Positions 14,946-55,023 of a stretch of 64,000 nt of DNA are shown one piece after another. The number at the start of each line of letters is the position of its first letter. Position 1 is the first letter of the stretch. A program made the translations under genes and the position numbers. Source of the DNA: Candidatus Fraserbacteria bacterium (GTDB lineage Bacteria > Bipolaricaulota > Bipolaricaulia > RBG-16-55-9 > JANLFV01); contig JBBIJD010000001.1 in the NCBI GenBank assembly GCA_037446135.1, positions 27,156-91,155 on the forward strand. Direction: 5' to 3'. The notes below the pieces were generated by a model. The model made no database searches and was not told the origin of the DNA. It worked only from the letters and a program-made list of their open reading frames with translations.

Positions 14946-15503
14946 ATGGAGATCAATCTGCCGAACCAGCTTACCCTGCTCCGGATCGCCATCATCCCCA
15001 TCTTGATGGTCTTCATCCTCATTCCTCCGGCCTGGGGGAAGATCGTGGCGATCTTCATCTTCGCCATCGCGGCCCTCTCCGATGCCGTCGACGGCTACAT
15101 CGCCCGGAACTGGCGCCAGGTGACGGACTTCGGGAAGTTCGCCGACCCCATCGCGGACAAGCTCTTGATCGCCTCCGCCTTAATCTGCTTCCTCCAGCTC
15201 GGGGAGTTCGGGAGCTGGGGGGCGGCGATCGTCATGACGATCCTCGCCCGGGAGTTCCTCGTCACCGGGTTGAGGATCTTGGCCGTCTCCCAAGACTTAG
15301 TGATCCGGGCCTCCACCTTGGGGAAGCTCAAGACCCTCGCCCAGATCGGGCTGGTCTTCGTCATTTTAGGGAAGAGCTACTTCGACTGGGGCGAGGCCGG
15401 AGAGATCGCAAAAGCGCTGTTTATCGGGCTGGCGCTTTTCTTGGCCCTCGTCTCTGGGGCCGACTATTTCTATCGCAGCCGGAGGCTCTTCCGTCGGCTC
15501 TAG
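14946..15503 (+). CDS. pgsA: CDP-diacylglycerol--glycerol-3-phosphate 3-phosphatidyltransferase
   Basis: Start at MEINLPNQLTLLRIAI. CDP-alcohol phosphotransferase motif DAVDGYIARNW...G...DPIADK. The N-terminal extension in the ORF track is low-complexity and antisense to the asparaginase gene. Confidence 0.9.
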   Translation: MEINLPNQLTLLRIAIIPILMVFILIPPAWGKIVAIFIFAIAALSDAVDGYIARNWRQVTDFGKFADPIADKLLIASALICFLQLGEFGSWGAAIVMTILAREFLVTGLRILAVSQDLVIRASTLGKLKTLAQIGLVFVILGKSYFDWGEAGEIAKALFIGLALFLALVSGADYFYRSRRLFRRL

Positions 15504-18280
15504 CCCCGGACGGAAATGGTCCTAGTCGCTGAGCTGGTATAGCCATCGTTATCGGTGACAGTCAGTGTCACGGGGTAGTCCCCGGCCTTGGGGAAGACCC
15601 ACTTGACGACCTTCCCCTCGGCGTCGGTGGCCTTATCTCCGGTGAAGTCCCATTCATACCTCACGATGTAGCCATCGGGATCGAATGAGGGCGAGCCGTC
15701 GAAGGTCACCTCCTCTCCGGCCTTCGGCTCCGCTGGGGCATAGGTGAAGTCCGCAAAGGGTGGCTGGAAGGTGACGACGATCGGGCGGGGCCGCTCGGCC
15801 GCCCCGAACTCCACTCGGAGGACCTCCCCAGGCTGGAGGAAAAGCTCGAGCCTCGTCGGGGTCGTCGGCTCATAGCGGGCCGGGAGGGTCGCAGGATCGA
15901 GGGAGAGGGAATACCTCCCGGGCAAGAGGGCGGTGAAGACGAACTCGCCCTGCGAGTCAGTGTAGGTGTCCACCAACTCGGCATCGCTCAGGATCAGTCT
16001 TACCCTCGGAAGGCCGGGCTCGCCTTCCTCTCGCCGGCCGTCCCGATTGAGGTCCTTGAAGACCACTCCCAAGATCGCCGCGGCCCTCGCTAGAGGGATG
16101 TCGAGCTTGAGGACCTCTCCCGCCTCCAGTTCGAGCTCGATCGGGAGGGCCACGGCCGGGGCCAGCTCAGCCGGGACCCGGCGGATCGTGAGGAGATACC
16201 TTCCGGGCCAGAGCGGCGGGAAGCGGTAGAACCCGGTCTTCTCCCCGTCGGAGCGGACTGTCACTTCACCGATCTGGAGGAAGACTCCGCTCACACCCGG
16301 CTCGCCGGGATCACGGGCCGAATTGCCGTCCTCATCGATGAAGATGTAGCCCTCGACCCGGGCCTTAGTGAGGATGAACGGGAGGGGGAGGTTGAACCTC
16401 AGGAGGCCTTCCAGGGCCACTCCTAGCTCCGCGGCCCCACTTACTATCGGGAGCGAGGCCCTCGTCTCGATCGCCCCTTCCCAGGCCTGGGACTCGACCG
16501 CCAGCCAGAGGGCGAGCTCGAGTCCCTCCTCGCTCCAGGCCCCGCGCAAGGCCGCGGCCAGGGCCCCCACCCGCAAGGTGAGCCCCGTCTCCAAGCCGAA
16601 GGAGGTGTCAGTGACCATCCCAGAGATGAGGTCATCGGTGAGAGCCTCGCTGAGCCGGAGGGAGAGGAGGGCCCCTCCCCCCGGCCTCAGGCTGAGCAGT
16701 TGCTCATACTGGGAGTATTGATAATCCGTCCCGGTGACGCGATCGCTCTCCCTGGTAGTGCTGGCAGTGAAAGCCAGTGTCGCCTGGCCGATGGGCTGGC
16801 TGAGGCTGGAATAGGCCGTCCTTTCCACCCGATTGACCTCGGGGGAGAGGCCCTCGCTGAACTGCTCCTCGAATTCGGCCCGGAGGCGGAGCGTGGGGAG
16901 CTCCCGCCCGAATGTATGGTAGCCGCTGAAGGAGCTGCGGATGGTGGTGATCCCCGAGACCGTCGGCCTCTGACTCAGGTTCTCCTCGCTTAAGCCAAGT
17001 GAGAGGGTGAGCAAAGGGAGGCTCGGGGAAGAGGTCCGGTAGGCCAGCTCACCGCTGACCCGATCCCCGAGGGTCGGGCCGCGGAGGGCCAGACCGAGCC
17101 GGAGGAGCGAGTCGCCGAAGTAGAACCCCAGGTGGCTGCTGAGAGCCCCGTCAATCCCCTCGGCTGTGCCACTTGCCTCCGCGGTGAGGGTGAGATCCAG
17201 GGCCCCGGCCTGGGCGATGGTGAGCCGGAGGTCATGCCGCTCCGGCGGGCCGGGATAATCCAGAAGATCGAGCTCGAGCCGCTTCAGTCCTGCCTCCGGA
17301 AGGCCGAGGTAGTTGAGCCGCAAGCTGTCGGCGGCCCGCTCGAGGAAGAAGGAGTCCCTAGCGGTGCCCCAGCCGAACAGGAGCCCCGGCTCGAGCCCCG
17401 CGAAGAGGTCGGCGAGATGGAGTTCGAGCCGGAGGGAGCTCTCTTTGCTGATCCGCCCACCGGCGAAGAGGTCGAGTGAGAGGGCCCGCTCTTCAGTGAG
17501 CAGGGGGCTCTCGAGCCGGAACTCGAGCGTCGCCGGTAGCTCGGCGTAGAGTGCCCCGCCGACCGCTTGGGGCGGTGGCGGGAGGAGGCTGATCCAGGCC
17601 GTGGCCTCGGCCTTCACCTCCGGCTTAGTGAGTGAGCTGGCCTTGAGTGTGACCCTGAGCCTCCCTATCGTGGCGGTCGGGAGGACCGTGGCGAGGACCC
17701 CGGCCCTCCGGGCCTCCCCGGGGAGGAGGTCGAGCTGGCCCTCCTCCAGCTCGGCGACGATCTCCGGTGAGCTGGTGACCTCCAGCTTGAAGGAGTCGGG
17801 GAGATTCCCGCGGTTGAGGACCACAAACTCCAGTCGGACCCGCGTGCCGGGATCGGCCTGGACCTCCGGCGGAGGGAAGACCTCGACCGCTGCTTGAGGG
17901 AGGACGATGATGATCGCAGTCGCAGAGGCAGTGATCGAGGGACTGCTCTCGGCTGTGGCCTTAAGCTGGAGGAGGTTCTCGCCCGCCTCGGCCTGAGCGG
18001 TCACGAAGACGGTGATGAAGAGTGCTTGCTCCTCATCGGTTTCCAGCTCGACCGCCGTGGGCGGGGAGACGGGCTCAAGCCCAGGAGAGGGGGAAAGCTC
18101 GAGGAGGAAGCGGTCCGCCGCGCCGCGGTTCCGGATGGAGAAGACATGGGTGACGAATTCCCCTGGTAGGGCCTGCTTCGGCGGGGAGACAGCTTCGAGC
18201 TCCACCTGGGCGAACGCGGCCGCCTGATAGAGCAGGAATAGTGATAAGATGAGGATCAGCCGGCGCATCGCGGGTCGCAC
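15500..18280 (-). CDS. Large secreted/cell-surface multi-domain protein: DUF11/CARDB-like N-terminal repeats, central beta-rich region, two Cna-B/SdrD-B-type Ig-like domains and C-terminal PKD domain
   Basis: 926 aa. Signal peptide MRRLILILSLFLLYQAAAFAQ. C-terminal PKD signature (VTFDGSPSFDPDGYIVRYEWDFGD...YPVTLTVTDNDG). Two carboxypeptidase-regulatory/SdrD-B-like repeats (YIFIDEDGNSARDPGEPGVSGV...; VFKDLNRDGRREEGEPGLPRVRL...). Middle ~350 aa has alternating hydrophobic periodicity compatible with a beta-barrel or beta-sandwich array. Confidence 0.75.
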   Translation of the reverse strand: MRPAMRRLILILSLFLLYQAAAFAQVELEAVSPPKQALPGEFVTHVFSIRNRGAADRFLLELSPSPGLEPVSPPTAVELETDEEQALFITVFVTAQAEAGENLLQLKATAESSPSITASATAIIIVLPQAAVEVFPPPEVQADPGTRVRLEFVVLNRGNLPDSFKLEVTSSPEIVAELEEGQLDLLPGEARRAGVLATVLPTATIGRLRVTLKASSLTKPEVKAEATAWISLLPPPPQAVGGALYAELPATLEFRLESPLLTEERALSLDLFAGGRISKESSLRLELHLADLFAGLEPGLLFGWGTARDSFFLERAADSLRLNYLGLPEAGLKRLELDLLDYPGPPERHDLRLTIAQAGALDLTLTAEASGTAEGIDGALSSHLGFYFGDSLLRLGLALRGPTLGDRVSGELAYRTSSPSLPLLTLSLGLSEENLSQRPTVSGITTIRSSFSGYHTFGRELPTLRLRAEFEEQFSEGLSPEVNRVERTAYSSLSQPIGQATLAFTASTTRESDRVTGTDYQYSQYEQLLSLRPGGGALLSLRLSEALTDDLISGMVTDTSFGLETGLTLRVGALAAALRGAWSEEGLELALWLAVESQAWEGAIETRASLPIVSGAAELGVALEGLLRFNLPLPFILTKARVEGYIFIDEDGNSARDPGEPGVSGVFLQIGEVTVRSDGEKTGFYRFPPLWPGRYLLTIRRVPAELAPAVALPIELELEAGEVLKLDIPLARAAAILGVVFKDLNRDGRREEGEPGLPRVRLILSDAELVDTYTDSQGEFVFTALLPGRYSLSLDPATLPARYEPTTPTRLELFLQPGEVLRVEFGAAERPRPIVVTFQPPFADFTYAPAEPKAGEEVTFDGSPSFDPDGYIVRYEWDFTGDKATDAEGKVVKWVFPKAGDYPVTLTVTDNDGYTSSATRTISVRG

Positions 18281-18357: not shown

Positions 18358-19371
18358 CTAGCCCCGGGACAGGAGTCCCCGGAGGAGGGCCACATCCTCG
18401 CCGTCGGCATCCCCGTCGTTATCGAAATCGAAGGCCGGCCAATTGTTCTGGACCCCAGCGGTGGTGAGGTTCGCCTCCAGGAGGTCCGGGTCAGCGGCGG
18501 TAAAGGCCCCATCGCCGTCCACATCCTCGTAGAAGCCGTCCCCATCGAGGTCCTGTGGCGGATTCGCCGCTCCTCCGATCGGGATGAGCTTGAGCTCAGG
18601 GACATCGAAAATGAGCTGCCCCGCGGGGAGATAATCGGGACTCCCGAAGTCGAGGACCGCCAGGGCATAGTATCGGCCCGGTGCGGGGCGAGGTGAGGAG
18701 CCCCGAGCTCGGGCCTCCCGGACCGCCCCGGGGAGGATCGGGAACTGGGCCACCTCGATCCGCTCCACTAGTTCGCCCCGAGCATCTAGGACTTGGACCT
18801 CCCCGCTCACCCGGAGGTGGATATCCCCGGTGTTCTCGAAGCCGATGAGGAAAGTGAGCGGGTTGAGCCCGAGCCGCTGGACCCCGGTGATCCGGCCGGC
18901 TCTCGTGCCGGTCCAAGGTGGGGTCTCATAGACCTTGATCCCGAACCGGGGGACCACCATTACCGTCGTCCCGCCCCGCTCTTGCGGCCGGGGCCGCCCC
19001 TCGACCATGATCATCCCCCAATAGGTCCCCTGGACATCGGGCGGGACAGTGATGGTGAACCGGACCTCGCGGGCCTCATCGGGCTTAAGGGAGAAGCTCG
19101 TGGGGGTCACGGTGATCCAGGCGGTATTCGAGCGAGGGAGGCTCCCCGGCTCATAGAAGCGGTGATTCCCCTCGACATCCCGGTCCCAGTCGACGAGGTA
19201 GACCTTGATGTCGTCGGTGATCTGTTCATCGTTGTGGACGAGGAAGGAGAAGGTCCCGCTCCCACCGGCCGGGACCTGGAGGTCGAACTCGATCTGGGAG
19301 ACCTCCAGGGCTGAGGAGGTCAGGAGCACCGCCGCAAGGGTCAAGAGGAGAATAAAGCTCTTCCTCAGCAT
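18358..19371 (-). CDS. Secreted protein with an N-terminal Ig-like domain resembling pilus-chaperone (PapD-like)/DUF916-type domains and a C-terminal dockerin-like Ca-binding repeat pair
   Basis: 337 aa. Signal peptide MLRKSFILLLTLAAVLLTSSA. LEVSQIEFDLQVPAGGSGTFSFLVHNDEQITDDIKVYLVDW parallels the chaperone pattern (RIxY...KSVSLTVxN...PYLVQSW). The C-terminus has two dockerin-type repeats: DLDGDGFYEDVDGDG...DPDLLEANL and DFDNDGDADGEDVALLRGLL. Confidence 0.6.
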   Translation of the reverse strand: MLRKSFILLLTLAAVLLTSSALEVSQIEFDLQVPAGGSGTFSFLVHNDEQITDDIKVYLVDWDRDVEGNHRFYEPGSLPRSNTAWITVTPTSFSLKPDEAREVRFTITVPPDVQGTYWGMIMVEGRPRPQERGGTTVMVVPRFGIKVYETPPWTGTRAGRITGVQRLGLNPLTFLIGFENTGDIHLRVSGEVQVLDARGELVERIEVAQFPILPGAVREARARGSSPRPAPGRYYALAVLDFGSPDYLPAGQLIFDVPELKLIPIGGAANPPQDLDGDGFYEDVDGDGAFTAADPDLLEANLTTAGVQNNWPAFDFDNDGDADGEDVALLRGLLSRG

Positions 19372-19436: not shown

Positions 19437-19958
19437 CTAGGCGCTCGTCAGGGTGTAGACGATCTGGAGGGTATAGCTCCCCGGTGGGTCCTCTTCCCAG
19501 GCGAGGAGGACCCTGAAATGGGTATTCACGAGGATATTATTCCCTCTATTCCCCGCGGCCACCTGGACTTCGTTGATGGTCATCCCGGTATAGTCGGGCT
19601 GGGTCGCGGTCACTCGCGGGTCGGTGGAGGAGGACTTCCACTCCAGATCTTCACAGGGCTTATTCGGGTCCGGCCAAGTCCCAGTGTAAGTCCAAGTCGG
19701 GGCTGTGGCCCAGACATTGACCTGCCAGTTGACATTGCTCCTGACTTTGAGCGTCTGGGCGGGAGAGATCTCCTTATAGCCCCTCTCGTAGTCGTCTGCC
19801 GTCAGGTCCCCGAAGTCGACGAGATTGGGGTCCACCGTCAAGCGGAGAGCCGCTAGCGCGGTCGCTTGAACAGTCGTATTTTGGCTTGTCTGGGCCAAGC
19901 CCGCAAGGCCGAGGAGCAGAACCAAACCTGCTGCCAGAAGCCATCTCAATCTTGCCAT
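19437..19958 (-). CDS. Small secreted beta-rich protein, paralog A of a three-member family (pilin/SCPU-like or WxL-like C-terminal strand)
   Basis: 173 aa. Signal peptide MARLRWLLAAGLVLLLGLAGLAQT. Thr/Ser/Asn-rich. C-terminus PGSYTLQIVYTLTSA matches paralogs B (PGDYSITLEYTATSL) and C (PGDYHVTLTYTITTD). Confidence 0.8.
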   Translation of the reverse strand: MARLRWLLAAGLVLLLGLAGLAQTSQNTTVQATALAALRLTVDPNLVDFGDLTADDYERGYKEISPAQTLKVRSNVNWQVNVWATAPTWTYTGTWPDPNKPCEDLEWKSSSTDPRVTATQPDYTGMTINEVQVAAGNRGNNILVNTHFRVLLAWEEDPPGSYTLQIVYTLTSA

Positions 19959-19984: not shown

Positions 19985-20060
19985 GTGGCTTCGGCAGCCT
20001 GGCAGTCCGTGGAGGACCCACGGCTTTGCGCCCCCATGTCGCCATGGGTTCGCCTTTTCG
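19985..20060 (-). promoter_or_regulatory. GEMM-like (c-di-GMP-I class) riboswitch motif in the 5' UTR of paralog A
   Basis: RNA sense: AAGGCGAACCC-[CCCAUG GCGA CAUGGG]-GGCGCAAAGCC-[CCGUGG guccu CCACGG]...GGCUGCCGAAGCC. Shows the GEMM hallmarks GGCAAACC and GGRCGCAAAGCY around a P1 hairpin with a GNRA tetraloop, then P2. The same architecture occurs twice upstream of paralog C with compensatory changes in the P1 stem. Confidence 0.7.
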
Positions 20061-20075
20061 GTCCACTTAAACAAT

Positions 20076-20137: not shown

Positions 20138-20190
20138 TGACACCCATAAAATAAAGAGAGGCCCCGGGCTCGAGTCATGAGCCCGGGGCC
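20138..20190 (-). terminator. Rho-independent terminator after paralog B (perfect 10-bp GC stem plus T-tract on the minus strand)
   Basis: GGCCCCGGGC...GCCCGGGGCC stem at 20160-20190. On the minus strand it is followed by CTCTCTTTATTTTATGGG. Sits 20 nt after the stop of 20212..20754. Confidence 0.75.
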
Positions 20191-20211
20191 CCGAAATGAG
20201 CGACTAACCGG

Positions 20212-20754
20212 TTACAGAGAGGTTGCGGTGTATTCCAGGGTGATGCTGTAATCTCCGGGGATGTCCTGTTCGTCCGAGGTATACTTGTAGGCCATATGGA
20301 AGTAGGCCGCGCCCGGCTTCTCCCCGGTCCCGGCCTTCATCATCTGATTGAATCCCGGGAAGCTGACATAGCTCCCCTGGTAGCCGCTGACATTCCCCTC
20401 GACTTTGGCGACCTTCCAGGCGAAGTCAGCGAGGATGTCCCCTTCAAAGCCCGGAGGGGTGGTAGCCTCGACGGCCTGGACGGCCAGGACATAGCCGTTA
20501 TGGCAGTTGGTCCTGAGGGAGACGATGTTCCCTTCGGTGTCCTCTAGGATCTGATCCGGCCCGGTGATCGTCCCCAGGAAGACATCCTGGTGGACATTGA
20601 GGGTGATCCAACAGTTGGCATTCCAGTAGACCGTGGTCTTCCCGCCGTCCCCGGCCCCGAGGGAGATCGTCCCCCAGAGGGCCGCGATCGCTAATGCCGC
20701 GAGGGTCGCTACCTTCAGGGTCTTTCCTATTCTCTTCATCGGTGTTACCTCCAT
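20212..20754 (-). CDS. Small secreted beta-rich protein, paralog B
   Basis: 180 aa. Signal peptide (MKRIGKTLKVATLAALAIAALWG). C-terminal PGDYSITLEYTATSL. No riboswitch upstream; instead an 11-bp-periodic TGGAAr repeat array. Confidence 0.8.
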   Translation of the reverse strand: MEVTPMKRIGKTLKVATLAALAIAALWGTISLGAGDGGKTTVYWNANCWITLNVHQDVFLGTITGPDQILEDTEGNIVSLRTNCHNGYVLAVQAVEATTPPGFEGDILADFAWKVAKVEGNVSGYQGSYVSFPGFNQMMKAGTGEKPGAAYFHMAYKYTSDEQDIPGDYSITLEYTATSL

Positions 20755-20895: not shown

Positions 20896-22158
20896 TTAGG
20901 GCTTCTTAGCAGGGAGGGCCCTGGCCCCTCCGAGCCGCTTTGCCCGGTAGAGGGCCCGGTCGGCCTGCTCGATCAGCTCGTCCGGCGAGGCCCCGTCCTC
21001 GGGGAAGCCGGCCACTCCGGCGCTGAAGCTGGCCCTGAAGGGCTCGGATTGCTCAGGGGCTTGGAACCGCTGCTCATGGAACTCCCCTTGGAGCCTGGTC
21101 AGGGCCGCCACGGCCCGGGGCTTGATGGTCTCGGGGAGGATGAGGGCGAACTCATCCCCGCCGTAGCGGGCGGGTAGGTCGCTCTTCCGTCCCTTGGACT
21201 TGATGAGCTCGGCCAGGGCCTTCAGGACGGAGTCGCCCATCCGATGGCCATAGCGGTCGTTGATCGCCTTGAACCGGTCGAGGTCGAGGAGGGCCAGGGA
21301 GAAGACCCTTCCATACCTTCTGCTCCGCTCGAGGGTGCAGCGGAGCTTCTCCTGGAAGGCCCGGTGGTTGTAGAGCCCGGTCAGGCCATCGAGGTCCGCC
21401 AGCTCGGTGAGCACCCGGTTCCGCTCGAGCCGGGCGGCGATCCGGGCGATCAGCTCCTCAGGGTAGAACGGCTTAGTGATGTAGTCGTCCGCCCCGGCCT
21501 CCAGGCCCCGGACCTTGGTCGCCACATCGCCCCTCCCGGTGAGGAAGAAGATCGGGAGCTTCTGGAACTCCACCTCCCGGCGGAGGGAGGCGCAGAGCTC
21601 CAGTCCGGTCAGCTTCGGCATCTCGATGTCCAGGAGCAAGAGGTCCGGCTTGAACTCCCTCAGGGTTGAGAGCGCCTCCGTCGGGTCTTGCAAGGCCTTG
21701 GTGGCGAACCCCGCTTGGCGGAGATGCCCCCCGACGAGCTCCAAGAGGTGAGGATCATCATCGACGATCGCGATCCTCAAGCGGTCGCCTCCTCCCTTTG
21801 GCTCTTGCTCAAGCTCGAACTTGAGCCCAAGCGCCGCTTCGGCCCGCTGGAGCTCCTCCTCCAGCTCGCGAAGGAGGGCCCGGAGCCTTCCCAGTTCCGG
21901 GGCGGCCAGCGGCCTGTTCTGAAGCTGGAGGGCCTCTTCCATCTCCTGAGCCAGCTCGGAGAGCCGAGGGTAGCCGTAGGAGCCGCCGCTCCCCTTGAGC
22001 CGATGGGCCCGCTCCAAGAGGGCCGCCATGGGGGCTTCAGCCTGAGGATCGGCCTCGAGGTCATTGAGCAACTGTCCGAAGAGGTTGAGGGCCCCGCGGA
22101 CCTCCTCGAGGTAGAGCCTTCGCAAGCCCTCCAATCCTTCTTCCATAGGTTCCACCAT
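20896..22158 (-). CDS. Hpt-REC-GGDEF signalling protein (diguanylate cyclase with receiver and N-terminal histidine phosphotransfer domain)
   Basis: 420 aa. Hpt HxxKG motif (ERAHRLKGSGGSYG). REC (IAIVDDDP...LLLDIEMP...DDYITKPF). GGDEF with intact active site RYGGDEF and a putative I-site (RRYGRV...). Confidence 0.9.
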   Translation of the reverse strand: MVEPMEEGLEGLRRLYLEEVRGALNLFGQLLNDLEADPQAEAPMAALLERAHRLKGSGGSYGYPRLSELAQEMEEALQLQNRPLAAPELGRLRALLRELEEELQRAEAALGLKFELEQEPKGGGDRLRIAIVDDDPHLLELVGGHLRQAGFATKALQDPTEALSTLREFKPDLLLLDIEMPKLTGLELCASLRREVEFQKLPIFFLTGRGDVATKVRGLEAGADDYITKPFYPEELIARIAARLERNRVLTELADLDGLTGLYNHRAFQEKLRCTLERSRRYGRVFSLALLDLDRFKAINDRYGHRMGDSVLKALAELIKSKGRKSDLPARYGGDEFALILPETIKPRAVAALTRLQGEFHEQRFQAPEQSEPFRASFSAGVAGFPEDGASPDELIEQADRALYRAKRLGGARALPAKKP

Positions 22159-22181
22159 TGGGAAGGATAAGGCCCTCAGGC

Positions 22182-22220
22182 TGGAATATCGATGGAAGTG
22201 GGCTGGAAATCTGATGGAAG
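22182..22220. promoter_or_regulatory. Four TGGAA(T/G/A) direct repeats at 11-bp spacing upstream of the Hpt-REC-GGDEF gene
   Basis: cTGGAAT atc gATGGAAG tgg gcTGGAAAT ctg ATGGAAG. TGGAA cores at 22182, 22193, 22204 and 22215, located 25-65 nt upstream of the GGDEF start codon and just after the RR stop. Confidence 0.5.
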
Positions 22221-22227
22221 CGGGGGG

Positions 22228-22905
22228 CTACCCCGCCAACTTATACCCGAACCCGCGGACGGTGAGGATCAGTTCGGGGTTCTGCGGGTCCCGCTCGATC
22301 CGCTTGCGGAGGAGGTAAATGTATTTTTGCACATCGCCGGGGCGGGCGAAGCTGCTCCCCGGCCAGAGATGGTCGATGATCTCCCGATCGGAGAAGACCC
22401 TCCCCCGCTCTGAAGCTAAGAGGAGCAGGAGCTCATACTCCTTGGGGGAGAGGCTCACCACCTCTCCTCGGACCTGGACGGTCTTGCTCTTATCGTCGAT
22501 GGTGAGCGGCCCGACCTCAATGAGCGCCTCTTTCGGGGCCGCCCCGGCCCGCCGGAGGACCGCCTCGATCCGGAGGGCCACCTCCATGAGGTCGAACGGC
22601 TTCCTGATATAGTCGTCGGCCCCGAGGGTGAACCCCTGGATCGTATCTATCGGCGAGTCCCGGGCGGTGAGCATCAGCACTGGGGTGGAGCTGCCTTCCC
22701 GGATCCGCCGGAGCACCTCCCAGCCATCCATCCCCGGGAGCATCACATCGAGGAGGACCAGGTCCGGCCGCTCCTTAGCGAAGGCCTCCAGGGCCTTTGG
22801 GCCGTCCTCGGCGGTGAGGACCTCATACCCGCGGGAGCTGAGGAAGGCTCGGAGGAGCCTCAAGATATCAGGGTCGTCATCGACGAGGAGGATCTTCTTA
22901 GCCAT
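22228..22905 (-). CDS. OmpR-family response regulator (REC + winged-helix)
   Basis: 225 aa. KILLVDDDP...LVLLDVMLPGMDGW...DDYIRKPF, plus trans_reg_C (LSPKEYELLLLLASERGRVFSDREIIDHLW...TVRGFGYKLA). About 60% identity by eye to the second RR at 39014. Confidence 0.95.
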   Translation of the reverse strand: MAKKILLVDDDPDILRLLRAFLSSRGYEVLTAEDGPKALEAFAKERPDLVLLDVMLPGMDGWEVLRRIREGSSTPVLMLTARDSPIDTIQGFTLGADDYIRKPFDLMEVALRIEAVLRRAGAAPKEALIEVGPLTIDDKSKTVQVRGEVVSLSPKEYELLLLLASERGRVFSDREIIDHLWPGSSFARPGDVQKYIYLLRKRIERDPQNPELILTVRGFGYKLAG

Positions 22906-25075
22906 CCTGATCAGTCAGTCCTCCGTCCAGCCCGAGCTTGAGCCAGCTCTTGGAGAGCGGGAGCCTGACGGTGAACTTCGTCCCCGCATTCGGCTTGCTC
23001 TCGACCCTGATCTCCCCGCCGTGACGGTCGATCGTGGCCTTGACGATCGCCAGCCCCAGGCCGGTCCCCGTGGCCTCCCGGACATAGGGGTTGGTGGAGC
23101 GGAAGAACCTGGTGAAGAGCCGGCCGAGCTCCTCCGCGTCCATCCCGATCCCGGTATCCGTGACCTCGACGATCGCCTCCCCGGCCACGGTGTCGGCCCG
23201 GGCCCGGAGGCTCACCTTCCCCTCCTTGGTGTATTTGATGGCATTGGAGAGGAGGTTGGCGAAGGCCCGAGCGAGGTAGTCGGCATCACCTTTGACCTGG
23301 AGCCCTTCCTCCAGCTCGACCTCCAGGGCCAATCCCTTCTCCCGGGCATTGACGGCGAAAGTGGCGGCCACATCCCTCAAGATTTCGTCGAGCGCGAGGT
23401 CCCTTAGCTCGATCTTCCGCTCCCCCGACTCGAGCCGCTCGATGTCCAGGAGGTCGTTGACCAGTTTGGTCAGGCGGTCGGCGTTCCGGGAGATAACCTG
23501 GAGGAACTCCTCCTGGGCCGGATTGAGGGGGCCGGTCTCCCCGGCCAAGAGGAGGTCGGCATACCCTTTGATCGAGGTGAGCGGGGTCCGAAGCTCATGG
23601 GAGACGGTGGCGAGGAACTCGGCCTTCAGTTGCTCCAGTCGCTTCTGAGCGGTGATATCCCGCATCATCCCTTGATAGCCCACCAGCCGCCCCGCGCTGT
23701 CCTTGATGGCCACACTGATCTCGTGGACCGTCCTCATTGAGCCGTCCTTGTGCTTATACGCTAGTTCCATGTCTACATAGCCGTCCCGCGCCAGTCGCCG
23801 GTGGAACTCCTCCCGCTGGGCCGGGTCGGCATAATTCTCGCAGAGGTCCATCCGGATCAGCTCCTCTTCCCTGTAGCCGAGAAGCTTCCTCACCGCCGGG
23901 TTGACATCGACGAGTCGGCCTTGAGAATCGCAGACATAGATCACATCGGCGCTATTCTCGAAGAGGTTGCGGTAGCGCTCCCCTGAGCGGCGGAGTTCCT
24001 CCTCAGCTTGCTCGCGTCTAGCAAGCATCTCATTGATCGAGCGAGCCAGGCTCGCCAGCTCATCGCCCCCTTTGGAGGGGAGGCGGGCCGAGAGGTCGCC
24101 GCTCGCCGTGACCCGGCGGACAGCCCGCTCGAGTCGGGCCAGCTTAGCCAGGACACCCCTCTCGAGCAGGAGGAGGGCGGTGGCCGTGAAGACCAGGCCG
24201 ATGGTAGAGAGGGCCAACATGAAGTAGTTCAAGCTCGCCAGCCCTTGGCTGTAGATGGTCCGCGGGAGGTCCACCCTCAAGATGAGGGCCGGCTGGCCGT
24301 AGATATCTCGGAGCAGGGCATAGCCGGCGACCCGCTCCCGGTCGAGCCGCTGGACAGGGAGCGTCGTCGCCCCTGTCCCCGCTAAGAGGGCCGTGCGGGC
24401 CGCGGCGAAGGCCGGGTCTTCTAGGGCTAGTCCTGGCTCATCAACTCGCCGGAATGCTAGTGAGAGGTCCGTCAACTCCGCCAGTTGAGCGACCTTAGCA
24501 GCATCGAGGTAGCGGCCCATGATGAGCGAGCCCCGGCTCGGGCCGGTCTTCTCGCTGGTGAGGATCGGCCTGGCGGCCAAGAGGAGTGGCCCCTCCGCTA
24601 GAAGGAGGAGCCCAGTCAGCCCCTCTTTGGGAGGCTCCTCGCGGGGCCGGAGGAGCGGGCTCTCAGGGGTGAGACTGTTCAAGAGGCCCTCTGGGACTGG
24701 CACCTCCCTTCTCTCCTGGAGGTCGAAGGCCTTGGCGAAGACGATCCTCCCCGAGGAGTGGACGAAGACCATCAAGTTCAAGCCGAGCTCGCTGAAGGTC
24801 TGATCGACGAGGTTGGAGCGGATATACTCCGGATTGGCGTCCTCGATGAAGGCATAGGTATCGTCCCAACCGGCCCAATCGCCGACGAGGGCGCTCAGCT
24901 TGGCCTGGTCATCGGCTAGCGCGTTCAGGGTTCGCTCGACCTCCCTTCGGGTGGCCTGCTCTTCCAGGGCCAGGAAGCCCCCGAGGAAGAGCGACCGGAG
25001 GACGAGATACATGATGGCTACTGAGCAGAGGAGCACTGAGCCGATAGTGATCAGCGTCTTCTTCCGTAGGGTCAT
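22898..25075 (-). CDS. Sensor histidine kinase with extracytoplasmic sensor domain, HAMP, PAS, HisKA and HATPase_c
   Basis: 725 aa. N-terminal TM segment, ~270-aa periplasmic region, a second TM, HAMP-like linker, PAS (DVIYVCDSQGRLVDVNPAV), H-box (ATVSHELRTPLTSI), and N/G boxes (LSNAIKYT, DTGIGM, GTGLGLAIV). Confidence 0.9.
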   Translation of the reverse strand: MTLRKKTLITIGSVLLCSVAIMYLVLRSLFLGGFLALEEQATRREVERTLNALADDQAKLSALVGDWAGWDDTYAFIEDANPEYIRSNLVDQTFSELGLNLMVFVHSSGRIVFAKAFDLQERREVPVPEGLLNSLTPESPLLRPREEPPKEGLTGLLLLAEGPLLLAARPILTSEKTGPSRGSLIMGRYLDAAKVAQLAELTDLSLAFRRVDEPGLALEDPAFAAARTALLAGTGATTLPVQRLDRERVAGYALLRDIYGQPALILRVDLPRTIYSQGLASLNYFMLALSTIGLVFTATALLLLERGVLAKLARLERAVRRVTASGDLSARLPSKGGDELASLARSINEMLARREQAEEELRRSGERYRNLFENSADVIYVCDSQGRLVDVNPAVRKLLGYREEELIRMDLCENYADPAQREEFHRRLARDGYVDMELAYKHKDGSMRTVHEISVAIKDSAGRLVGYQGMMRDITAQKRLEQLKAEFLATVSHELRTPLTSIKGYADLLLAGETGPLNPAQEEFLQVISRNADRLTKLVNDLLDIERLESGERKIELRDLALDEILRDVAATFAVNAREKGLALEVELEEGLQVKGDADYLARAFANLLSNAIKYTKEGKVSLRARADTVAGEAIVEVTDTGIGMDAEELGRLFTRFFRSTNPYVREATGTGLGLAIVKATIDRHGGEIRVESKPNAGTKFTVRLPLSKSWLKLGLDGGLTDQDG

Positions 25076-25187
25076 CTATCTGCTTCTGGCCTCTCGGCCT
25101 GTATCGAGAAGGAATAATAAACCAATAAAGCCGGCCATTCAAGGCCGGCTATCCAACTCTGCTCTTACTCCTGGGCAAGCAGGGCTC

Positions 25188-25709
25188 TCAATCGGTGGTG
25201 ATGGTGTAGGTCAGGGTCACATGGTAGTCTCCCGGCCTATGATGCTCGCGGTCGAAGAGGATGAGGTAGTCCACCTCCACCTTTTGGCGCCCGCTCGGGC
25301 CATGAGCGATGACCTGATCGGAGTTGCTGACCGGGCGATAGGACTCGCTCCCCACGCGGAGCTGGAAGTCGCTGAGCGGCTTGGTGTAGCGGCCGTCATA
25401 GCTCCTTCCGAGGTCGGGCTCGGCGGCCCGGACCGCCAGCCTCCAGTGGACATTGCTGGCGGCGATGAGGGTGAGCGCCCTAGGGATCTCGCGGTAGCCC
25501 CGCTCCAGGTCCGCTTCGCTCGGCTGAGGGAGCACAAATGTCGTCGTGACGGCCTGGTCGGTCTGGCCCTCGAGTGAGAGGCGGGCGAAAGGGAGGACAG
25601 TCCAAGAGATCGTCGTCCTAGCGGAGTCACCTGTCCCTAGAGCCTGGGCACTGAGGAATAACGAGAGACCGAGAAGAAGCAAGCCGGAGATGACCGCTCT
25701 TCTTGCCAT
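25188..25709 (-). CDS. Small secreted beta-rich protein, paralog C
   Basis: 173 aa. Signal peptide MARRAVISGLLLLGLSLFLSAQA. C-terminal PGDYHVTLTYTITTD. Preceded by tandem GEMM-like riboswitch motifs. Confidence 0.8.
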   Translation of the reverse strand: MARRAVISGLLLLGLSLFLSAQALGTGDSARTTISWTVLPFARLSLEGQTDQAVTTTFVLPQPSEADLERGYREIPRALTLIAASNVHWRLAVRAAEPDLGRSYDGRYTKPLSDFQLRVGSESYRPVSNSDQVIAHGPSGRQKVEVDYLILFDREHHRPGDYHVTLTYTITTD

Positions 25710-25710
25710 C

Positions 25711-25790
25711 CTTCGGCAGCCCGGCGATCCCCGAGGGACCCGTAGCTTTGCGCCCCCACCTTGCGATGGGTTTGCCCTTATCGGGATGCG
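25711..25790 (-). promoter_or_regulatory. GEMM-like (c-di-GMP-I class) riboswitch motif, gene-proximal copy of a tandem pair
   Basis: RNA sense: AAGGGCAAACCC-[AUC GCAA GGU]-GGGGGCGCAAAGCUACGGG...GGGCUGCCGAAGG-AUG. The P1 stem CCCAUC/GGUGGG differs from the other copies (CCCGCC/GGCGGG and CCCAUG/CAUGGG) by compensatory changes, and all three loops are GNRA-type (GCAA, GAGA, GCGA). Confidence 0.7.
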
Positions 25791-25801
25791 TCCCTTCCTC
25801 G

Positions 25802-25905
25802 CCCTTCGGCAGCCCGGCTGCCCTTCACCTCCTTCCCCAATCAGCCAGTGTTAGGGCCCGTGGCTTTGCGCCCCCGCCTCTCGGCGGGTTTGCCCTTATC
25901 GGAGC
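25802..25905 (-). promoter_or_regulatory. GEMM-like (c-di-GMP-I class) riboswitch motif, distal copy of the tandem pair
   Basis: RNA sense: CCGAUAAGGGCAAACCC-[GCC GAGA GGC]-GGGGGCGCAAAGCCACGGGCCC...GGGCAGCCGGGCUGCCGAAGGG. Lies immediately downstream of the promoter at 25916-25945. Confidence 0.7.
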
Positions 25906-25915
25906 TCAGCGAAGG

Positions 25916-25945
25916 TATTATACACCGAGTGAGCGGGCTTGACAA
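25916..25945 (-). promoter_or_regulatory. Near-consensus sigma70 promoter (minus strand TTGTCA-17 nt-TATAAT) for the tandem riboswitch-paralog C transcript
   Basis: Minus-strand reading: ggcTTGTCAagcccgctcactcggtgTATAATacc. Overlaps the 3' end of the HD-GYP gene. Confidence 0.6.
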
Positions 25946-27471
25946 GCCCCTTCGGGCGGGGAAGGTCCTTTCGGGCTCAGATCCAGATTGTATCCCCTCT
26001 CGAAGAGCCGGAGGCAGGCCTCGCCAGCTTGGGGGTCGTAGAGCCGCCCCTTGTGCTTGGCGATCTCTCCCAAGGCCTCCTCGATGGCATGGGCCGGGCG
26101 GTAGGGCCGGTGAGAGGCCACCGCCTCCACCACATCGGCCACCGCTAGAATTCGGGCCTCGAGCATGATCTCTTCCCCCTTGAGCCCCCGGGGGTAGCCC
26201 GAGCCGTCGAGCCGCTCGTGGTGCTGGAGGACGATCTCAGCCACCGGCCAGGGGAAGTCGATCTGCCTCAAGACCTCATAGCCGGCCTGGGGATGGACCC
26301 GCACCAGCCCCAACTCGGCCGGATTGAGCCTCCCCGGCTTGCTCAGGATCTCCGCGGGGATATAGATCTTCCCGATGTCGTGGACCTGAGCGGCCATCCT
26401 GAGCCCGGCGATCCGGTCCTGAGGGAGGCCCATCTCCTGGGCGATCGCGCAGGCCAGCTCCGCCACCCGCCGCTGGTGCCCCGCGGTGTAGGGGTCCCGG
26501 ACCTCGACGGTGGTGGCGAGGACATCGACCATCTGCTCCAGGAGCCGCTCCAGCCGCTCATGACTCTCCCGGAGGGCCTCAAACAGCCGGAGGTTCTCCA
26601 AGGCCACAGCGGTGGCATTGGCCAAAGCCTCGAGGAGCTGGCAGTCCTCGGAGGTGAAGGCATTCAACTCCTGGCTCTCGGCGTTGAGGGCCCCGAGGAC
26701 CCGCTCCCCCGCCTTCAAGGGGACGCAGAGCTCAGAGCGGTTGGCGAACCGCCCCCCGACGAACCGTGGGTCCTTGGTCACATCCGGGAGGAGGATCATC
26801 TCCCCAGAGCGGGCCACGGCGGGGATGATCCCCCGCTCGCTAGCGAGGGGGAACTCCTCCGGGCCGGGGGGCCGTCCAAGAGTGTGGGCGACACAGATGA
26901 GCCGCTCGGCCTTCTCGTCCACTAGGAAGAGGCCGCAGTCCTCGAGCCCGAGGACCTCCCGGGCCGCCTCCACCGCCGCTTGGGCGATCTCCTCCTCGCT
27001 CCGGGAGAGGATCAACCTTCGGCCCAGGGCGTAGATCCCGGCCAGGCCCCGCTCGAGCCGCTTCCGCTCGGTGATGTCCCTCAGGATCGTCTGGAGGCCG
27101 ACGACCTTCCCCGCCTGCCTGATCGGGTTGCTCCGGTAGTCCGCGATCCTCGGCCCCTTGGGGGTGGTGAGCTCGATCTCCCCTTGGATCGGCTCCCCTC
27201 GGCTTATCCGGGCGAGCTCCTCGAGCAGCCGGGGATGGTAGCGCTCGGGGACGAACTCGAGCATATTCTTCCCGACCAGGTCCTCCTTGCGGAAGCCATA
27301 TTCTGCAGCGGCCCGGTTCACGGCCGTCACATTCCCTTCAAGGTCGAAGGTGACAATGACATCCCTAGCGTCCTCGAAGAGCTCGCGATAGGCCCCTTCC
27401 GCCCGCTCAAGCTCAGCCACCCGCAGCCGGAGCTGCTCGAGCTCTAACCCCTCTCGTGCCTCCGGTCTCAA
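25918..27471 (-). CDS. PAS-GAF-HD-GYP protein (c-di-GMP phosphodiesterase, HD-GYP class)
   Basis: 517 aa. HD motif (VHDIGKI) and HHERLDGSGYP (the GYP signature). N-terminal PAS and GAF regions. Confidence 0.9.
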   Translation of the reverse strand: MRPEAREGLELEQLRLRVAELERAEGAYRELFEDARDVIVTFDLEGNVTAVNRAAAEYGFRKEDLVGKNMLEFVPERYHPRLLEELARISRGEPIQGEIELTTPKGPRIADYRSNPIRQAGKVVGLQTILRDITERKRLERGLAGIYALGRRLILSRSEEEIAQAAVEAAREVLGLEDCGLFLVDEKAERLICVAHTLGRPPGPEEFPLASERGIIPAVARSGEMILLPDVTKDPRFVGGRFANRSELCVPLKAGERVLGALNAESQELNAFTSEDCQLLEALANATAVALENLRLFEALRESHERLERLLEQMVDVLATTVEVRDPYTAGHQRRVAELACAIAQEMGLPQDRIAGLRMAAQVHDIGKIYIPAEILSKPGRLNPAELGLVRVHPQAGYEVLRQIDFPWPVAEIVLQHHERLDGSGYPRGLKGEEIMLEARILAVADVVEAVASHRPYRPAHAIEEALGEIAKHKGRLYDPQAGEACLRLFERGYNLDLSPKGPSPPEGACQARSLGV

Positions 27472-27702: not shown

Positions 27703-28371
27703 TTAAGGGCTGGGACTGGGACAAGGGACGAAGCAGGCCGCCCCGCCGAAGCTCACCATCCCGCCGATCGAGATCTCGAGGGCCGAGAGGGCCCCATTCC
27801 CGTCACAGACGCCGTCGTAAGCCCCGTCCCCGTCGACATCGAGCCAGCAGAGCGAGTTCGGCATCACCTCATACTTCAGCTCGGCGAAGATCGAGAACGG
27901 CCCGGTGGTGACCCGGAAGCCCGCCAGCTCATGGAGAGAGAGGAGCATCCCCGGACCGTAGGGGTTCCCCAGAGCGGTGAATGCCTCATAGGGGAAGGTG
28001 CCGATTCCTCCGCCGAGATAGAATCTTGCCATCCCCCGGTTGAGGAAGAGCAAGAGGCTGCTCTCGACGGAGGTGAGGTCGGCCCGGAGTAGGGCCGCGC
28101 TCAAGTAGAAGGCCACTCCCAGCCTAGCGGCCAGATCGAGGGTCAGCGGAGCCTCGGCGTAGAGGTGGATGAAAGTGAGGGCCGTAGTGAGCGTGAGTGG
28201 CGGCATGGTGATCAGCGGGAGAGAGAGGGCCAGCCCGAAGGCCGGAGAGGGGGCCGACGGGGGGGTCGCGGGCTGAGTCTGGGCCAACCCCACAAGGCTG
28301 CCGACCAGTAAAAGGACCAGCACCAGGAGCGCAGTTAAAGCCAGCTTCATCTTCTTGAACCTCCCTTCCAA
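27703..28371 (-). CDS. Secreted hypothetical protein with Ca-binding DxDxDG-type motif
   Basis: 222 aa in the track. The true start may be the internal Met of MKLALTALLVLVLLLVGSLVGLAQT (signal peptide). DVDGDGAYDGVCDGNG near the C-terminus is a thrombospondin-3/dockerin-like calcium loop. Confidence 0.5.
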   Translation of the reverse strand: MEGRFKKMKLALTALLVLVLLLVGSLVGLAQTQPATPPSAPSPAFGLALSLPLITMPPLTLTTALTFIHLYAEAPLTLDLAARLGVAFYLSAALLRADLTSVESSLLLFLNRGMARFYLGGGIGTFPYEAFTALGNPYGPGMLLSLHELAGFRVTTGPFSIFAELKYEVMPNSLCWLDVDGDGAYDGVCDGNGALSALEISIGGMVSFGGAACFVPCPSPSP

Positions 28372-35768: not shown

Positions 35769-36587
35769 ATGAACATCCACTTAAAGAGGCTGCTCCTCTT
35801 GGTGAACTTCGCTAAGCCCGGGGCCGCCCAGTTGGTGGAACGGATCTCGGTCTGGGGGAAGGAGCGGGGGATCGAGGTCGCGGTCCATGGGAGCCTCGAG
35901 GAGGGCCTCGAGGCCGGGCCCGAGCTGGGGACGACGGTGGTCGTGACCCTCGGGGGGGACGGGACCTTCCTCCGCGGGGCCCACCGCTTCGCCACACAAG
36001 CGGCCCCGCTCTTGGGGATCAATCTGGGGAGCCTCGGCTTCCTCACCCAGGTCGGAGCGGAGGAGGCCCTCCAGGCCCTGGAGCGGCTCCGGCGGGGCGA
36101 GTTCCGCCTGGAGGAGAGGATGATGCTCGAGGGCCAGCTCCGCGAGGAGAGGTTCCTCGCGCTCAATGAGCTCTTCCTCGCCCCAAAGGCGGTCGGAGGG
36201 TTCACTGAGCTCGAGCTCTTTGCCAATGGAGAGCGGGTCGGCCTCTACCCCGGAGATGGGCTGATCCTCGCCACTCCGACTGGCTCGACGGCCTACTCCC
36301 TGGCCGCGGGGGGGCCGATCGTCGAGCCCCGCCTGGAGATGATCATCGTCACCCCGGTCGCACCGCATCGGCTCGGGCTCCGGACGGCCATCTTCCCCCC
36401 CGAGGCGGAACTCCGGGTCTTAGCCCACCAACCCGCGACCCTGCTCGTCGATGGTGACTCCTCCGGGGAGCTCCTCCCTGGGGAGGAGCTCTTGGTCCGG
36501 CGCTCCCCCTCTCGGATTAGACTGGTCGTGGCTGACTCCCCGGGCTTCTTCTTCCTATTGGAGCGGAAACTCAACTGGGGCGGCTAG
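35769..36587 (+). CDS. nadK: NAD kinase
   Basis: GGDGT motif (VTLGGDGTFLRGA), NE/DG region and C-terminal beta domain. Confidence 0.9.
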   Translation: MNIHLKRLLLLVNFAKPGAAQLVERISVWGKERGIEVAVHGSLEEGLEAGPELGTTVVVTLGGDGTFLRGAHRFATQAAPLLGINLGSLGFLTQVGAEEALQALERLRRGEFRLEERMMLEGQLREERFLALNELFLAPKAVGGFTELELFANGERVGLYPGDGLILATPTGSTAYSLAAGGPIVEPRLEMIIVTPVAPHRLGLRTAIFPPEAELRVLAHQPATLLVDGDSSGELLPGEELLVRRSPSRIRLVVADSPGFFFLLERKLNWGG

Positions 36588-54960: not shown

Positions 54961-55023
54961 GTTTTGCCGCCCAACGGCTGTCAGCTCCAGCCGCAGGTTG
55001 GGCGGCCCAACGGAATGACACCT

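What the first reader, a model, noticed from the sequence alone, without database searches (positions are those of the whole stretch)
15500..18280. 926-aa surface protein with unusual domain order: DUF11-like repeats, a putative beta-barrel-like core, 2x Cna-B/SdrD-B domains, and PKD
The middle third (roughly residues 250-620) shows dipeptide-periodic alternation of hydrophobic and polar residues with frequent aromatic or Leu-terminated strands (LRLELHLADLF, LTLTAEASGT, LAYRTSSPSLPLLTLSLGL). That pattern could be a membrane beta-barrel or a long beta-solenoid. It is flanked by clearly extracellular adhesin-type Ig modules and a terminal PKD domain. If the core is a barrel, this would be an outer-membrane platform with both N- and C-terminal surface domains, possibly the assembly/anchor component of the locus.
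Basis: inference. Interest (0 to 1): 0.6.

Follow-up and report, generated by a model that had tools for sequence, protein, structure and literature searches.

The report
Usher-like outer-membrane barrel of a pilus-type operon
The middle of this 926-residue protein is very probably a large outer-membrane beta-barrel, and its conserved gene neighbours suggest it is the outer-membrane platform of an undescribed, c-di-GMP-controlled surface-fibre system in the little-known phylum Bipolaricaulota.

Summary
The ORF is real (15500..18280, minus strand; the likely start is the ATG at 18268, giving 922 aa). The two SdrD-B domains and the PKD domain are confirmed. The N-terminal repeats are NEW3/CARDB/Ig_VWA7-like, not DUF11 by Pfam.

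The gene ends a conserved operon of small secreted subunits, then a PapD/WxLIP-fold two-domain protein with a C-terminal dockerin, then the barrel protein. This order occurs in 18 loci from Bipolaricaulota, Fraserbacteria and related MAGs. c-di-GMP-I riboswitches precede the subunit genes in all 12 related loci tested and twice in the window. The phylum is diderm.

Best reading (about 0.5): a non-canonical, usher-like assembly and secretion platform whose terminal Ig-like domains are periplasmic, not surface-exposed. The fold of the subunits, the membrane orientation and the dockerin's partner remain unresolved.

The parts
15500..18280 (-). Barrel protein 'B': longest ORF 926 aa; the likely start is the ATG at 18268 (922 aa)
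18209..18280 (-). Sec signal peptide (residues 1-24, ...AAAFA|QVE)
   Evidence: read from the sequence; modelled as a helix at 4-22
17585..18208 (-). Two N-terminal Ig-like sandwiches (residues 25-232; NEW3/CARDB/Ig_VWA7-like), followed by an LPPPPQAVGG linker
16370..17548 (-). Beta-barrel core (residues ~245-637): about 21-22 long antiparallel strands with short turns. No Pfam or PDB sequence match.
17216..17332 (-). Low-confidence insert in the barrel (residues 317-355). It lies in a segment of variable length: residues 290-361 are 71 aa here, about 105-112 aa in most homologues and up to 205 aa in a few. Possible plug or extra strands.
15791..16363 (-). Two SdrD-B / CarboxypepD_reg-like sandwiches (residues 640-830), joined directly to the last barrel strand
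15506..15763 (-). C-terminal PKD domain (residues 840-925)
18358..19371 (-). Protein 'C' (337 aa): signal peptide, a two-domain PapD/WxLIP-like fold (residues ~22-257) and a dockerin-type Ca-binding tail (residues 281-331, window 18379-18531)
19437..19958 (-). Small secreted subunit 'S1' (173 aa), a member of a new family with the motifs SNxxWxLxV and C-terminal PGxYxxxxxYTxTxx
19989..20063 (-). c-di-GMP-I (GGC variant) riboswitch aptamer directly upstream of S1
   Evidence: same arrangement in 12 of 12 related loci
20158..20192 (-). Strong terminator-like hairpin plus T-run after S2, which separates S2 from the riboswitch-S1-C-B unit
20212..20754 (-). Small secreted subunit paralogue 'S2' (180 aa)
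25188..25709 (-). Small secreted subunit paralogue 'S3' (173 aa)
25711..25903 (-). Tandem c-di-GMP-I (GGC variant) aptamers (25711-25785 and 25804-25903) upstream of S3
20896..22158 (-). Hpt-REC-GGDEF diguanylate cyclase, part of the c-di-GMP signalling genes that sit between the subunit genes
22228..25075 (-). OmpR-type response regulator (22228-22905) and CHASE4-HAMP-PAS histidine kinase (22898-25075)
25918..27471 (-). PAS-GAF-HD(HD_5) protein, a likely HD-GYP-type c-di-GMP phosphodiesterase

Best explanation
The 926-aa protein is the outer-membrane component of a chaperone-usher-like fibre or adhesin system specific to Bipolaricaulota and its relatives.

Proposed mechanism:
1. c-di-GMP acts on riboswitches in front of the small-subunit genes and switches on the S1-C-B unit.
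2. S, C and B are exported by Sec.
3. C, a two-domain PapD/WxLIP-fold protein, binds the small subunits in the periplasm, probably by beta-strand complementation.
4. C's dockerin tail docks on one of B's Ig-like domains.
5. B's wide barrel of about 22 strands passes the subunits across the toga-like outer membrane, where they polymerise or are displayed.
6. B's two N-terminal and three C-terminal sandwich domains are periplasmic handling domains, like the NTD, CTD1 and CTD2 of an usher.

Shown: the domain composition, the barrel model, the fold of C, the conserved gene order, the riboswitches, and a diderm host phylum.

Inferred: translocation of subunits, strand complementation, docking by the dockerin, and a periplasmic orientation for the terminal domains.
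For: - Whole-chain architecture. Foldseek over 350,542 PDB chains ranks FimD ushers first (9fxs_D E 1.2e-13; also 9fy9_D, 9fw9_D, 3rfz_E, 9bog_D, 6e14_D) and also finds PapC (7lhi_C, 6cd2_C). The alignments span 700-900 columns.
- Synteny. The order S(1-3), C, B occurs in 18 loci including the window. Many loci also carry a 260-350 aa S protein with an extra roughly 150-aa segment ahead of the C-terminal S motifs. This recalls two-domain tip adhesins.
- Regulation. c-di-GMP-I aptamers precede the S genes in the window and in 12 of 12 related loci. GGDEF, HD-GYP-type, CHASE4 kinase and response-regulator genes are interleaved with the subunit genes.
- Host. Bipolaricaulota carry Omp-alpha/Omp-beta outer-membrane tethers (10.1101/2021.05.31.446380). 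The first isolate is Gram-negative with a toga and shows pili at the toga ends (10.1101/2025.11.21.689855).
Against: - No sequence similarity to usher families. The barrel core hits nothing in Pfam or among PDB sequences.
- The strand count is about 21-22, not 24, and no folded plug is modelled in this protein. Residues 300-400 have pLDDT of only 33-78.
- The subunit fold is unknown. Pfam gives nothing consistent. A weak hit to the donor-strand-exchange fibril TLP-1 (E 0.02) was not reproduced with two sub-profiles.
- The sequence link from C to WxLIP is fragile: E 1.4e-3 with a 59-sequence profile, lost with a 15-sequence core profile.
- A divergent group of loci has C and S with no adjacent B.
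- Orientation, pore passage and the dockerin's partner were not tested.
Confidence: 0.5

Rival explanations
1. Outer-membrane anchor or display platform. The barrel only anchors the protein. The Ig, SdrD-B and PKD modules are on the cell surface as adhesin domains and as a docking site for the dockerin of C. C in turn holds the small S proteins on the surface. This would be a diderm analogue of the Gram-positive WxL/WxLIP surface complex or of a mini-cellulosome.
For: SdrD-B, PKD and NEW3/CARDB domains are typical of extracellular proteins. C carries a dockerin in 52 of 59 homologues where WxLIP has a membrane anchor. C's closest two-domain structural match is WxLIP, a surface protein (PMC10599100). 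Some C-S pairs occur without B, so C need not be an usher-dependent chaperone.
Against: With an even strand number, both barrel ends lie on the same side, which is the periplasm in all characterised Bam-assembled barrels (established knowledge). The last strand is fused without a linker to the first SdrD-B domain. No route is evident by which about 500 residues of folded domains at both ends, plus C, would reach the surface. Carboxypeptidase-regulatory-like domains also occur in the periplasm, in SusC-type transporters (my own knowledge). No cohesin was detected.
Confidence: 0.22
2. A large diffusion or uptake channel with periplasmic accessory domains. Its link to S and C would be regulatory co-location only, with no mechanical role in handling them.
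Against: There is no TonB-receptor plug domain and no hit to the TonB-dependent receptor Pfam families. B follows C in 18 loci. An unplugged 22-strand pore would be harmful to the cell. Riboswitch control together with adhesin-like subunits fits a surface structure better.
Confidence: 0.1
3. Not a membrane barrel at all. The core would be a soluble beta-solenoid or sandwich array, and the barrel would be a modelling artefact of a Leu-rich amphipathic hairpin repeat.
For: The alignment holds only 50 sequences. pTM is 0.58, and residues 300-400 are of low confidence. Period-2 alternation is equally strong in the soluble Ig domains. Aromatic content is low, so no clear aromatic girdle is expected.
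Confidence: 0.05

Closest known systems
Chaperone-usher pilus ushers (FimD, PapC; Pfam Usher PF00577)
   Same: A large outer-membrane barrel flanked by N- and C-terminal beta-sandwich domains. It is encoded after a PapD-fold two-domain protein and small secreted subunits. It is the best whole-chain Foldseek match in the PDB. A variable insert lies early in the barrel, roughly where ushers carry their plug.
   Different: No detectable sequence homology. About 21-22 modelled strands rather than 24. No folded plug in this member. The flanking domains belong to other families (NEW3/CARDB, SdrD-B, PKD) and number 2 + 3 rather than 1 + 2. The chaperone carries a dockerin. The hosts are Terrabacteria-type diderms without LPS genes (PMC6092417).
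Gram-positive WxL clusters (WxL proteins plus WxLIP = DUF916 + DUF3324)
   Different: No WxL domain was detected in the small proteins. C ends in a dockerin instead of a transmembrane helix. The host is diderm. WxL clusters have no outer-membrane barrel gene. The sequence link is not robust.
22-strand TonB-dependent receptors and MtrB-type barrels
   Different: No plug domain and no hit to the TonB-dependent receptor Pfam families. The turns are short on both sides. The flanking domains and the gene context are entirely different.
MSCRAMM/SdrD-type adhesins and PKD-bearing surface proteins
   Same: They share SdrD-B (Cna-B-like) and PKD modules.
   Different: No LPXTG sorting signal and no A-domain. 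The modules here follow a membrane barrel and are probably periplasmic.

Membership tests
Chaperone-usher usher (PF00577 / PapC_N / PapC_C) | Sequence match to the usher profiles | tested here: not met
   Pfam scans of the protein, of 50 family members and of 15 isolated cores give no usher hit. The core profile against PDB sequences gives 0 hits.
Chaperone-usher usher (PF00577 / PapC_N / PapC_C) | 24-stranded outer-membrane barrel | tested here: inconclusive
   The model shows about 21-22 strands, but residues 300-400 are of low confidence. Most homologues have about 40 more residues in that segment.
Chaperone-usher usher (PF00577 / PapC_N / PapC_C) | Beta-sandwich plug domain inserted in the barrel | tested here: inconclusive
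   This protein has only a disordered insert of about 39 aa (residues 317-355). Long homologues (L002, L008, L015) carry inserts of 90-150 aa at two early sites in the barrel. Their fold and role are unknown.
Chaperone-usher usher (PF00577 / PapC_N / PapC_C) | Periplasmic N-terminal and C-terminal beta-sandwich domains flanking the barrel | tested here: inconclusive
   Sandwich domains do flank the barrel, and FimD and PapC are the top Foldseek matches. Their domain families differ from those of ushers, and a periplasmic location was not tested.
Chaperone-usher usher (PF00577 / PapC_N / PapC_C) | Operon with a PapD-fold chaperone and donor-strand pilin subunits | tested here: inconclusive
   The chaperone fold is met and the synteny is met. 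The subunit fold is unresolved.
PapD-like periplasmic chaperone (for neighbour C) | Two Ig-like domains with a PapD-type fold | tested here: met
PapD-like periplasmic chaperone (for neighbour C) | Pfam PapD_N / PapD_C above the curated threshold | tested here: not met
   PapD_N hits in 10 of 59 homologues are all below threshold (best E 0.011).
PapD-like periplasmic chaperone (for neighbour C) | Cleft Arg/Lys pair that binds the subunit's C-terminal carboxylate | not tested
   R142 and K146 are invariant or nearly so in the last strand of domain 1 (RFGIKVYETP). This resembles the chaperone G1-strand motif as I recall it, but no structural superposition was available.
WxL cluster (WxLIP + WxL) | WxLIP = DUF916 + DUF3324 + C-terminal transmembrane helix | tested here: not met
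   The two-domain fold is similar, but the Pfam hits are below threshold and the C-terminus is a dockerin, not a transmembrane helix.
WxL cluster (WxLIP + WxL) | At least two WxL-domain proteins in the cluster | tested here: not met
   No WxL (PF13731) hit in 47 small-subunit sequences, even at E up to 10.
TonB-dependent receptor | N-terminal plug domain and match to the TonB-dependent receptor Pfam profiles | tested here: not met
   No such Pfam hit in the protein or in 50 homologues. The similarity is to the barrel fold only.
c-di-GMP-I riboswitch (for the leader) | Score at or above the Rfam gathering threshold | tested here: met
   RF03167 scores 61.0, 74.4 and 76.2 bits against a threshold of 59. 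Ligand binding by this GGC variant was not tested.

The most novel reading that the evidence does not exclude
Bipolaricaulota, Fraserbacteria and their relatives have their own c-di-GMP riboswitch-controlled fibre pathway. Its outer-membrane translocon is a barrel family unrelated in sequence to ushers. Its chaperone is the diderm counterpart of the Gram-positive WxL-interacting protein and is recruited to the translocon by a dockerin. On this reading, WxL clusters of monoderm Firmicutes and chaperone-usher pili are two descendants of one ancient strand-complementation system, and this locus encodes the pili seen at the toga ends of the first cultured isolate.
Probability: 0.3. Interest if true: 0.85.

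Novelty: new variant of a known kind. Interest (0 to 1): 0.68.

Why it matters
- The first genome study of this phylum reported no genes for pili, fimbriae or adhesins (PMC6092417). The first isolate nevertheless shows pili at its toga ends, and no genes have been assigned to them (10.1101/2025.11.21.689855). This operon is a concrete candidate.
- It would add a new outer-membrane barrel family. It would also extend chaperone-usher-type logic to deep-branching, LPS-less diderms.
- It offers a possible evolutionary bridge between PapD-type chaperones and the unexplained WxL/WxLIP clusters of Gram-positive bacteria. That bears on how surface systems changed when the outer membrane was lost.
- One c-di-GMP aptamer per subunit gene is an unusually clean regulatory design, and it can be tested.

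Tried and rejected
- The word-indexed homologue search with the core found only one relative. The exhaustive HMMER search was needed to find the family.
- The window protein is not on record by exact sequence.
The subunit fold therefore stays unknown.
- The small-subunit profile gave a weak hit to the TLP-1 donor-strand-exchange fibril (E 0.02; PMC11494351). Two sub-family profiles did not reproduce it, so I treat it as a lead only.
- I suspected from the motifs that the small proteins are WxL domains. Pfam gives no support.
- The WxLIP sequence hit for C disappeared with a smaller, dockerin-free profile. Only the similarity in fold is solid.
- The genome scan with the full C alignment failed. 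The repeat run used dockerin patterns, so loci L041-L082 (mostly haloarchaeal dockerin-only hits, plus a few from other lineages) are irrelevant.
- The afdb50 fold library was unavailable.
- Literature searches found nothing that links WxL to PapD, or c-di-GMP riboswitches to this phylum, and nothing useful on the ligand of the GGC aptamer variant.
- A TonB-dependent receptor, an MSCRAMM adhesin and a porin were each considered and rejected as family assignments.
Full report
**1. The observation**

The ORF at 15500..18280 on the minus strand exists and is 926 aa as the longest reading. The GTG at 18280 sits directly against a GGAGAG ribosome-binding site, while the ATG at 18268 is properly spaced from it. 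A 90%-identical homologue (P0002, 921 aa) starts at the corresponding MRRL, so 922 aa is the likelier product. A Sec signal peptide is present.

Pfam confirms two SdrD_B domains (about 645-810) and a C-terminal PKD domain (840-923). PDB sequence hits agree, with collagenase PKD domains and SdrD.

The N-terminal repeats give no DUF11 hit. They match Ig_VWA7, NEW3, FixG_C and CARDB across the family, and weakly NCBIfam 'choice-of-anchor T'.

The alternation of hydrophobic and polar residues in the core is significant against shuffles (period-2 z = 4.3; Leu is 20% of residues). It is almost as strong in the N-terminal Ig domains (z = 3.5). It therefore shows beta structure only.

**2. What the core is**

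The core has no Pfam, NCBIfam or PDB sequence match, whether searched as a single sequence or as a profile.

It is rare. A word-indexed search of 5.8 billion proteins found one relative. An exhaustive HMMER search of 1.84 billion cluster representatives found 73, of which 41 have E at or below 1e-10. Nearly all are 890-1050 aa with the core at the same position. An alignment of 50 members shows one conserved architecture:
- signal peptide;
- two Ig-like domains;
- an LPPxPxAVGG linker;
- the core;
- an FxLPxPFIxTKGRxEG junction;
- two SdrD-B domains;
- usually a PKD domain.

With that alignment, AlphaFold2 gives mean pLDDT 86.4. Residues 245-637 form about 21-22 antiparallel strands of 10-18 residues joined by turns of 2-9 residues. 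There is one low-confidence insert at 317-355. Confidence is 81-98 per 10-residue block for residues 420-640, but only 33-78 for residues 300-400.

Most strands have one hydrophobic face and one polar face.

Foldseek against all 350,542 PDB chains ranks the FimD usher first (E 1.2e-13) in several entries and also finds PapC. The alignments span 700-900 columns, which is the pattern Ig, barrel, Ig. TM-scores are only 0.24-0.33.

**3. The surroundings**

Upstream on the same strand lie four features:
- a 337-aa secreted protein, C (18358-19371);
- a 173-aa secreted protein, S1 (19437-19958);
- a c-di-GMP-I (GGC variant) aptamer (19989-20063);
- beyond a strong terminator-like hairpin (20158-20192), a paralogue, S2 (20212-20754).

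A third paralogue, S3 (25188-25709), follows tandem aptamers (25711-25903). Between these genes sit an Hpt-REC-GGDEF cyclase, an OmpR-type regulator, a CHASE4 histidine kinase and a PAS-GAF-HD_5 protein.

Protein C has about 90 detected homologues. The full-length relatives that carry an organism name come from Ca. Bipolaricaulota/Acetothermia. JGI labels many 'P pilus assembly chaperone PapD' and NCBI labels one 'molecular chaperone'. Its AF2 model (pLDDT 94.9) has two beta-sandwich domains plus a helical dockerin-type tail.

At sequence level the link is borderline:
- a 59-sequence profile hits EfmWxLIP1 at E 1.4e-3;
- Pfam WxLIP_PGBD appears below threshold in 39 of 59 homologues, and PapD_N in 10 of 59;
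- a smaller, dockerin-free profile loses the hit.

The dockerin is present in 52 of 59 homologues.

**4. Conservation of the locus**

A genome scan with C retrieved about 35 full-length loci. By record title they come from Bipolaricaulota/Acetothermia, Fraserbacteria, MAGs labelled 'uncultured Thermotogae' or Thermotogota, and one Atribacteria MAG.

Local HMM searches show the order S (one to three copies), C, B in 18 loci including the window. Many loci also have a 260-350 aa S protein just before C. In it the S-family match is stretched by an extra segment of roughly 150 aa that lies ahead of the C-terminal S motifs.

Rfam finds c-di-GMP-I aptamers in front of S genes in all 12 loci tested. 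Often each S gene has its own aptamer, or a tandem pair.

A divergent subgroup (L030, L033, L038, L032) has a different make-up. In L030, L033 and L038 the order is C, then S, then a NosD/beta-helix protein of about 810 aa. In L030 the gene upstream of C is a PAS-GGDEF-EAL protein. In L032 the beta-helix gene lies on the opposite strand and S genes sit on both sides of C. None of these loci has B within the flanks.

The barrel segment equivalent to residues 290-361 varies in length. It is 71 aa here, about 105-112 aa in most members and up to 205 aa in a few. The rest of the barrel keeps a constant length. The longest members carry beta-rich inserts of 90-150 aa at two early sites in the barrel.

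**5. The small subunits**

The three window paralogues and about 60 locus-derived relatives form one family. The mature proteins are about 150 aa. The shared motifs are SNxxWxLxV and a C-terminal (P)GxYxxxxxYTxTxx with Gly at position -14.

No Pfam family matches consistently: DUF4402 in 2 of 47 members, SEF14 in 1. The full profile weakly hits TLP-1a/b (9IKJ/9IKK, E 0.02). That is an environmental fibril assembled by donor-strand exchange (PMC11494351). Two sub-profiles do not reproduce the hit. I could not obtain a structure model. The subunit fold is the main gap in the argument.

**6. The host envelope**

Bipolaricaulota carry the split OmpM-like Omp-alpha/Omp-beta tether and CsaB, like Thermotogae (10.1101/2021.05.31.446380). 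The first isolate is Gram-negative with a toga, an S-layer and a few pili at the toga ends, and has 64.5% G+C, similar to this window (10.1101/2025.11.21.689855). The first closed genome was reported to lack LPS genes and any pilus or adhesin genes (PMC6092417).

**7. Interpretation**

The most economical reading is an usher-like outer-membrane platform. C handles S in the periplasm, docks on B (perhaps through the dockerin), and S crosses the membrane through B's wide barrel, all under c-di-GMP control.

I place the terminal Ig-like domains in the periplasm for three reasons:
- characterised barrels with an even strand number have both ends in the periplasm (established knowledge);
- the C-terminal junction has no linker;
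- the architecture mirrors that of ushers.

This is inference. Pure-porin and not-a-barrel readings are less likely.

**8. Family membership and novelty**

Membership in the usher family is not supported. There is no sequence match, the strand count differs or is uncertain, and there is no clear plug. The claim is therefore 'works like an usher', not 'is an usher'. C is a member of the PapD-fold superfamily at the level of structure and lies nearest to WxLIP.

The system is best classed as a new variant of a known kind. If the WxLIP link and the dockerin-docking idea hold, the evolutionary interest is considerably higher.

Noticed in passing
window 25711-25903 (-): Two c-di-GMP-I (GGC variant) aptamers sit in tandem directly upstream of the stand-alone subunit paralogue S3 (25188-25709). 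Related loci also show one aptamer per subunit gene, or tandem pairs (for example L017, with four aptamers for three S genes).
   Followed up: partly
window 20896-27471 (-): A dense block of c-di-GMP signalling genes is interleaved with the subunit genes: Hpt-REC-GGDEF, an OmpR-type regulator, a CHASE4-HAMP-PAS histidine kinase and a PAS-GAF-HD_5 (HD-GYP-type) protein.
   Followed up: partly
window 18379-18531 (-); loci L041-L082: The chaperone-fold protein ends in a dockerin-type Ca-binding module, conserved in 52 of 59 homologues. No cohesin partner was found. Similar dockerin modules recur in many haloarchaeal genomes, and these swamped the genome scan.
   Followed up: partly
L002 12334-14196, L008 6936-8807, L015 10531-12402: Long homologues of the barrel protein carry two inserted beta-rich segments of about 90-150 aa early in the barrel. 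Their sequence patterns (VRFRNVGLxPHSV...) look cupredoxin-like to me. They might be plug or loop domains.
   Followed up: no
L005 8954-9877, L019 5936-6919, L040 5899-6942 and others: Secreted proteins of 260-350 aa lie immediately upstream of the chaperone-fold gene. They carry an extra roughly 150-aa N-terminal segment (TGWLNPSxDxGQF...) ahead of the C-terminal small-subunit motifs. This recalls two-domain tip adhesins or 'large WxL' proteins. The window locus has none.
   Followed up: partly
L030 5003-11068, L033 5162-11129, L038 5080-11397, L032 9514-11988: In a divergent subgroup, the C-S pair is accompanied by a NosD/right-handed beta-helix protein of about 810 aa (fused to OpuAC in three of the four loci) instead of the barrel protein. 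In L030 the gene upstream of C is a PAS-GGDEF-EAL protein. In L032 the beta-helix gene is on the opposite strand.
   Followed up: partly
window 36584-37495 (-): A 303-aa secreted, Leu-rich protein has strong beta-type alternation and no Pfam hit. It does not match the barrel-core profile.
   Followed up: partly
window 27703-28371 (-): A 222-aa protein has an N-terminal hydrophobic segment, a beta-rich body, a DVDGDGAYDG Ca-binding-like motif and a Cys/Pro-rich tail. It has no significant Pfam hit.
   Followed up: no
window 54001-56000: G+C drops locally to 0.57 against about 0.64 elsewhere, with a strongly negative GC skew (-0.21). No Rfam match falls there.
   Followed up: no
window 14949-15500 (+); L002 15053-15592: A CDP-alcohol phosphatidyltransferase gene converges on the 3' end of the barrel gene. 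It overlaps the barrel gene's stop codon region by a few bases in the window and sits in the same position in a distant locus.
   Followed up: no
L001 147-3009: The only homologue found by the word-indexed search is split into a 744-aa gene and an overlapping 218-aa gene (SdrD_B + PKD). This is probably a frameshift in the metagenome assembly.
   Followed up: no
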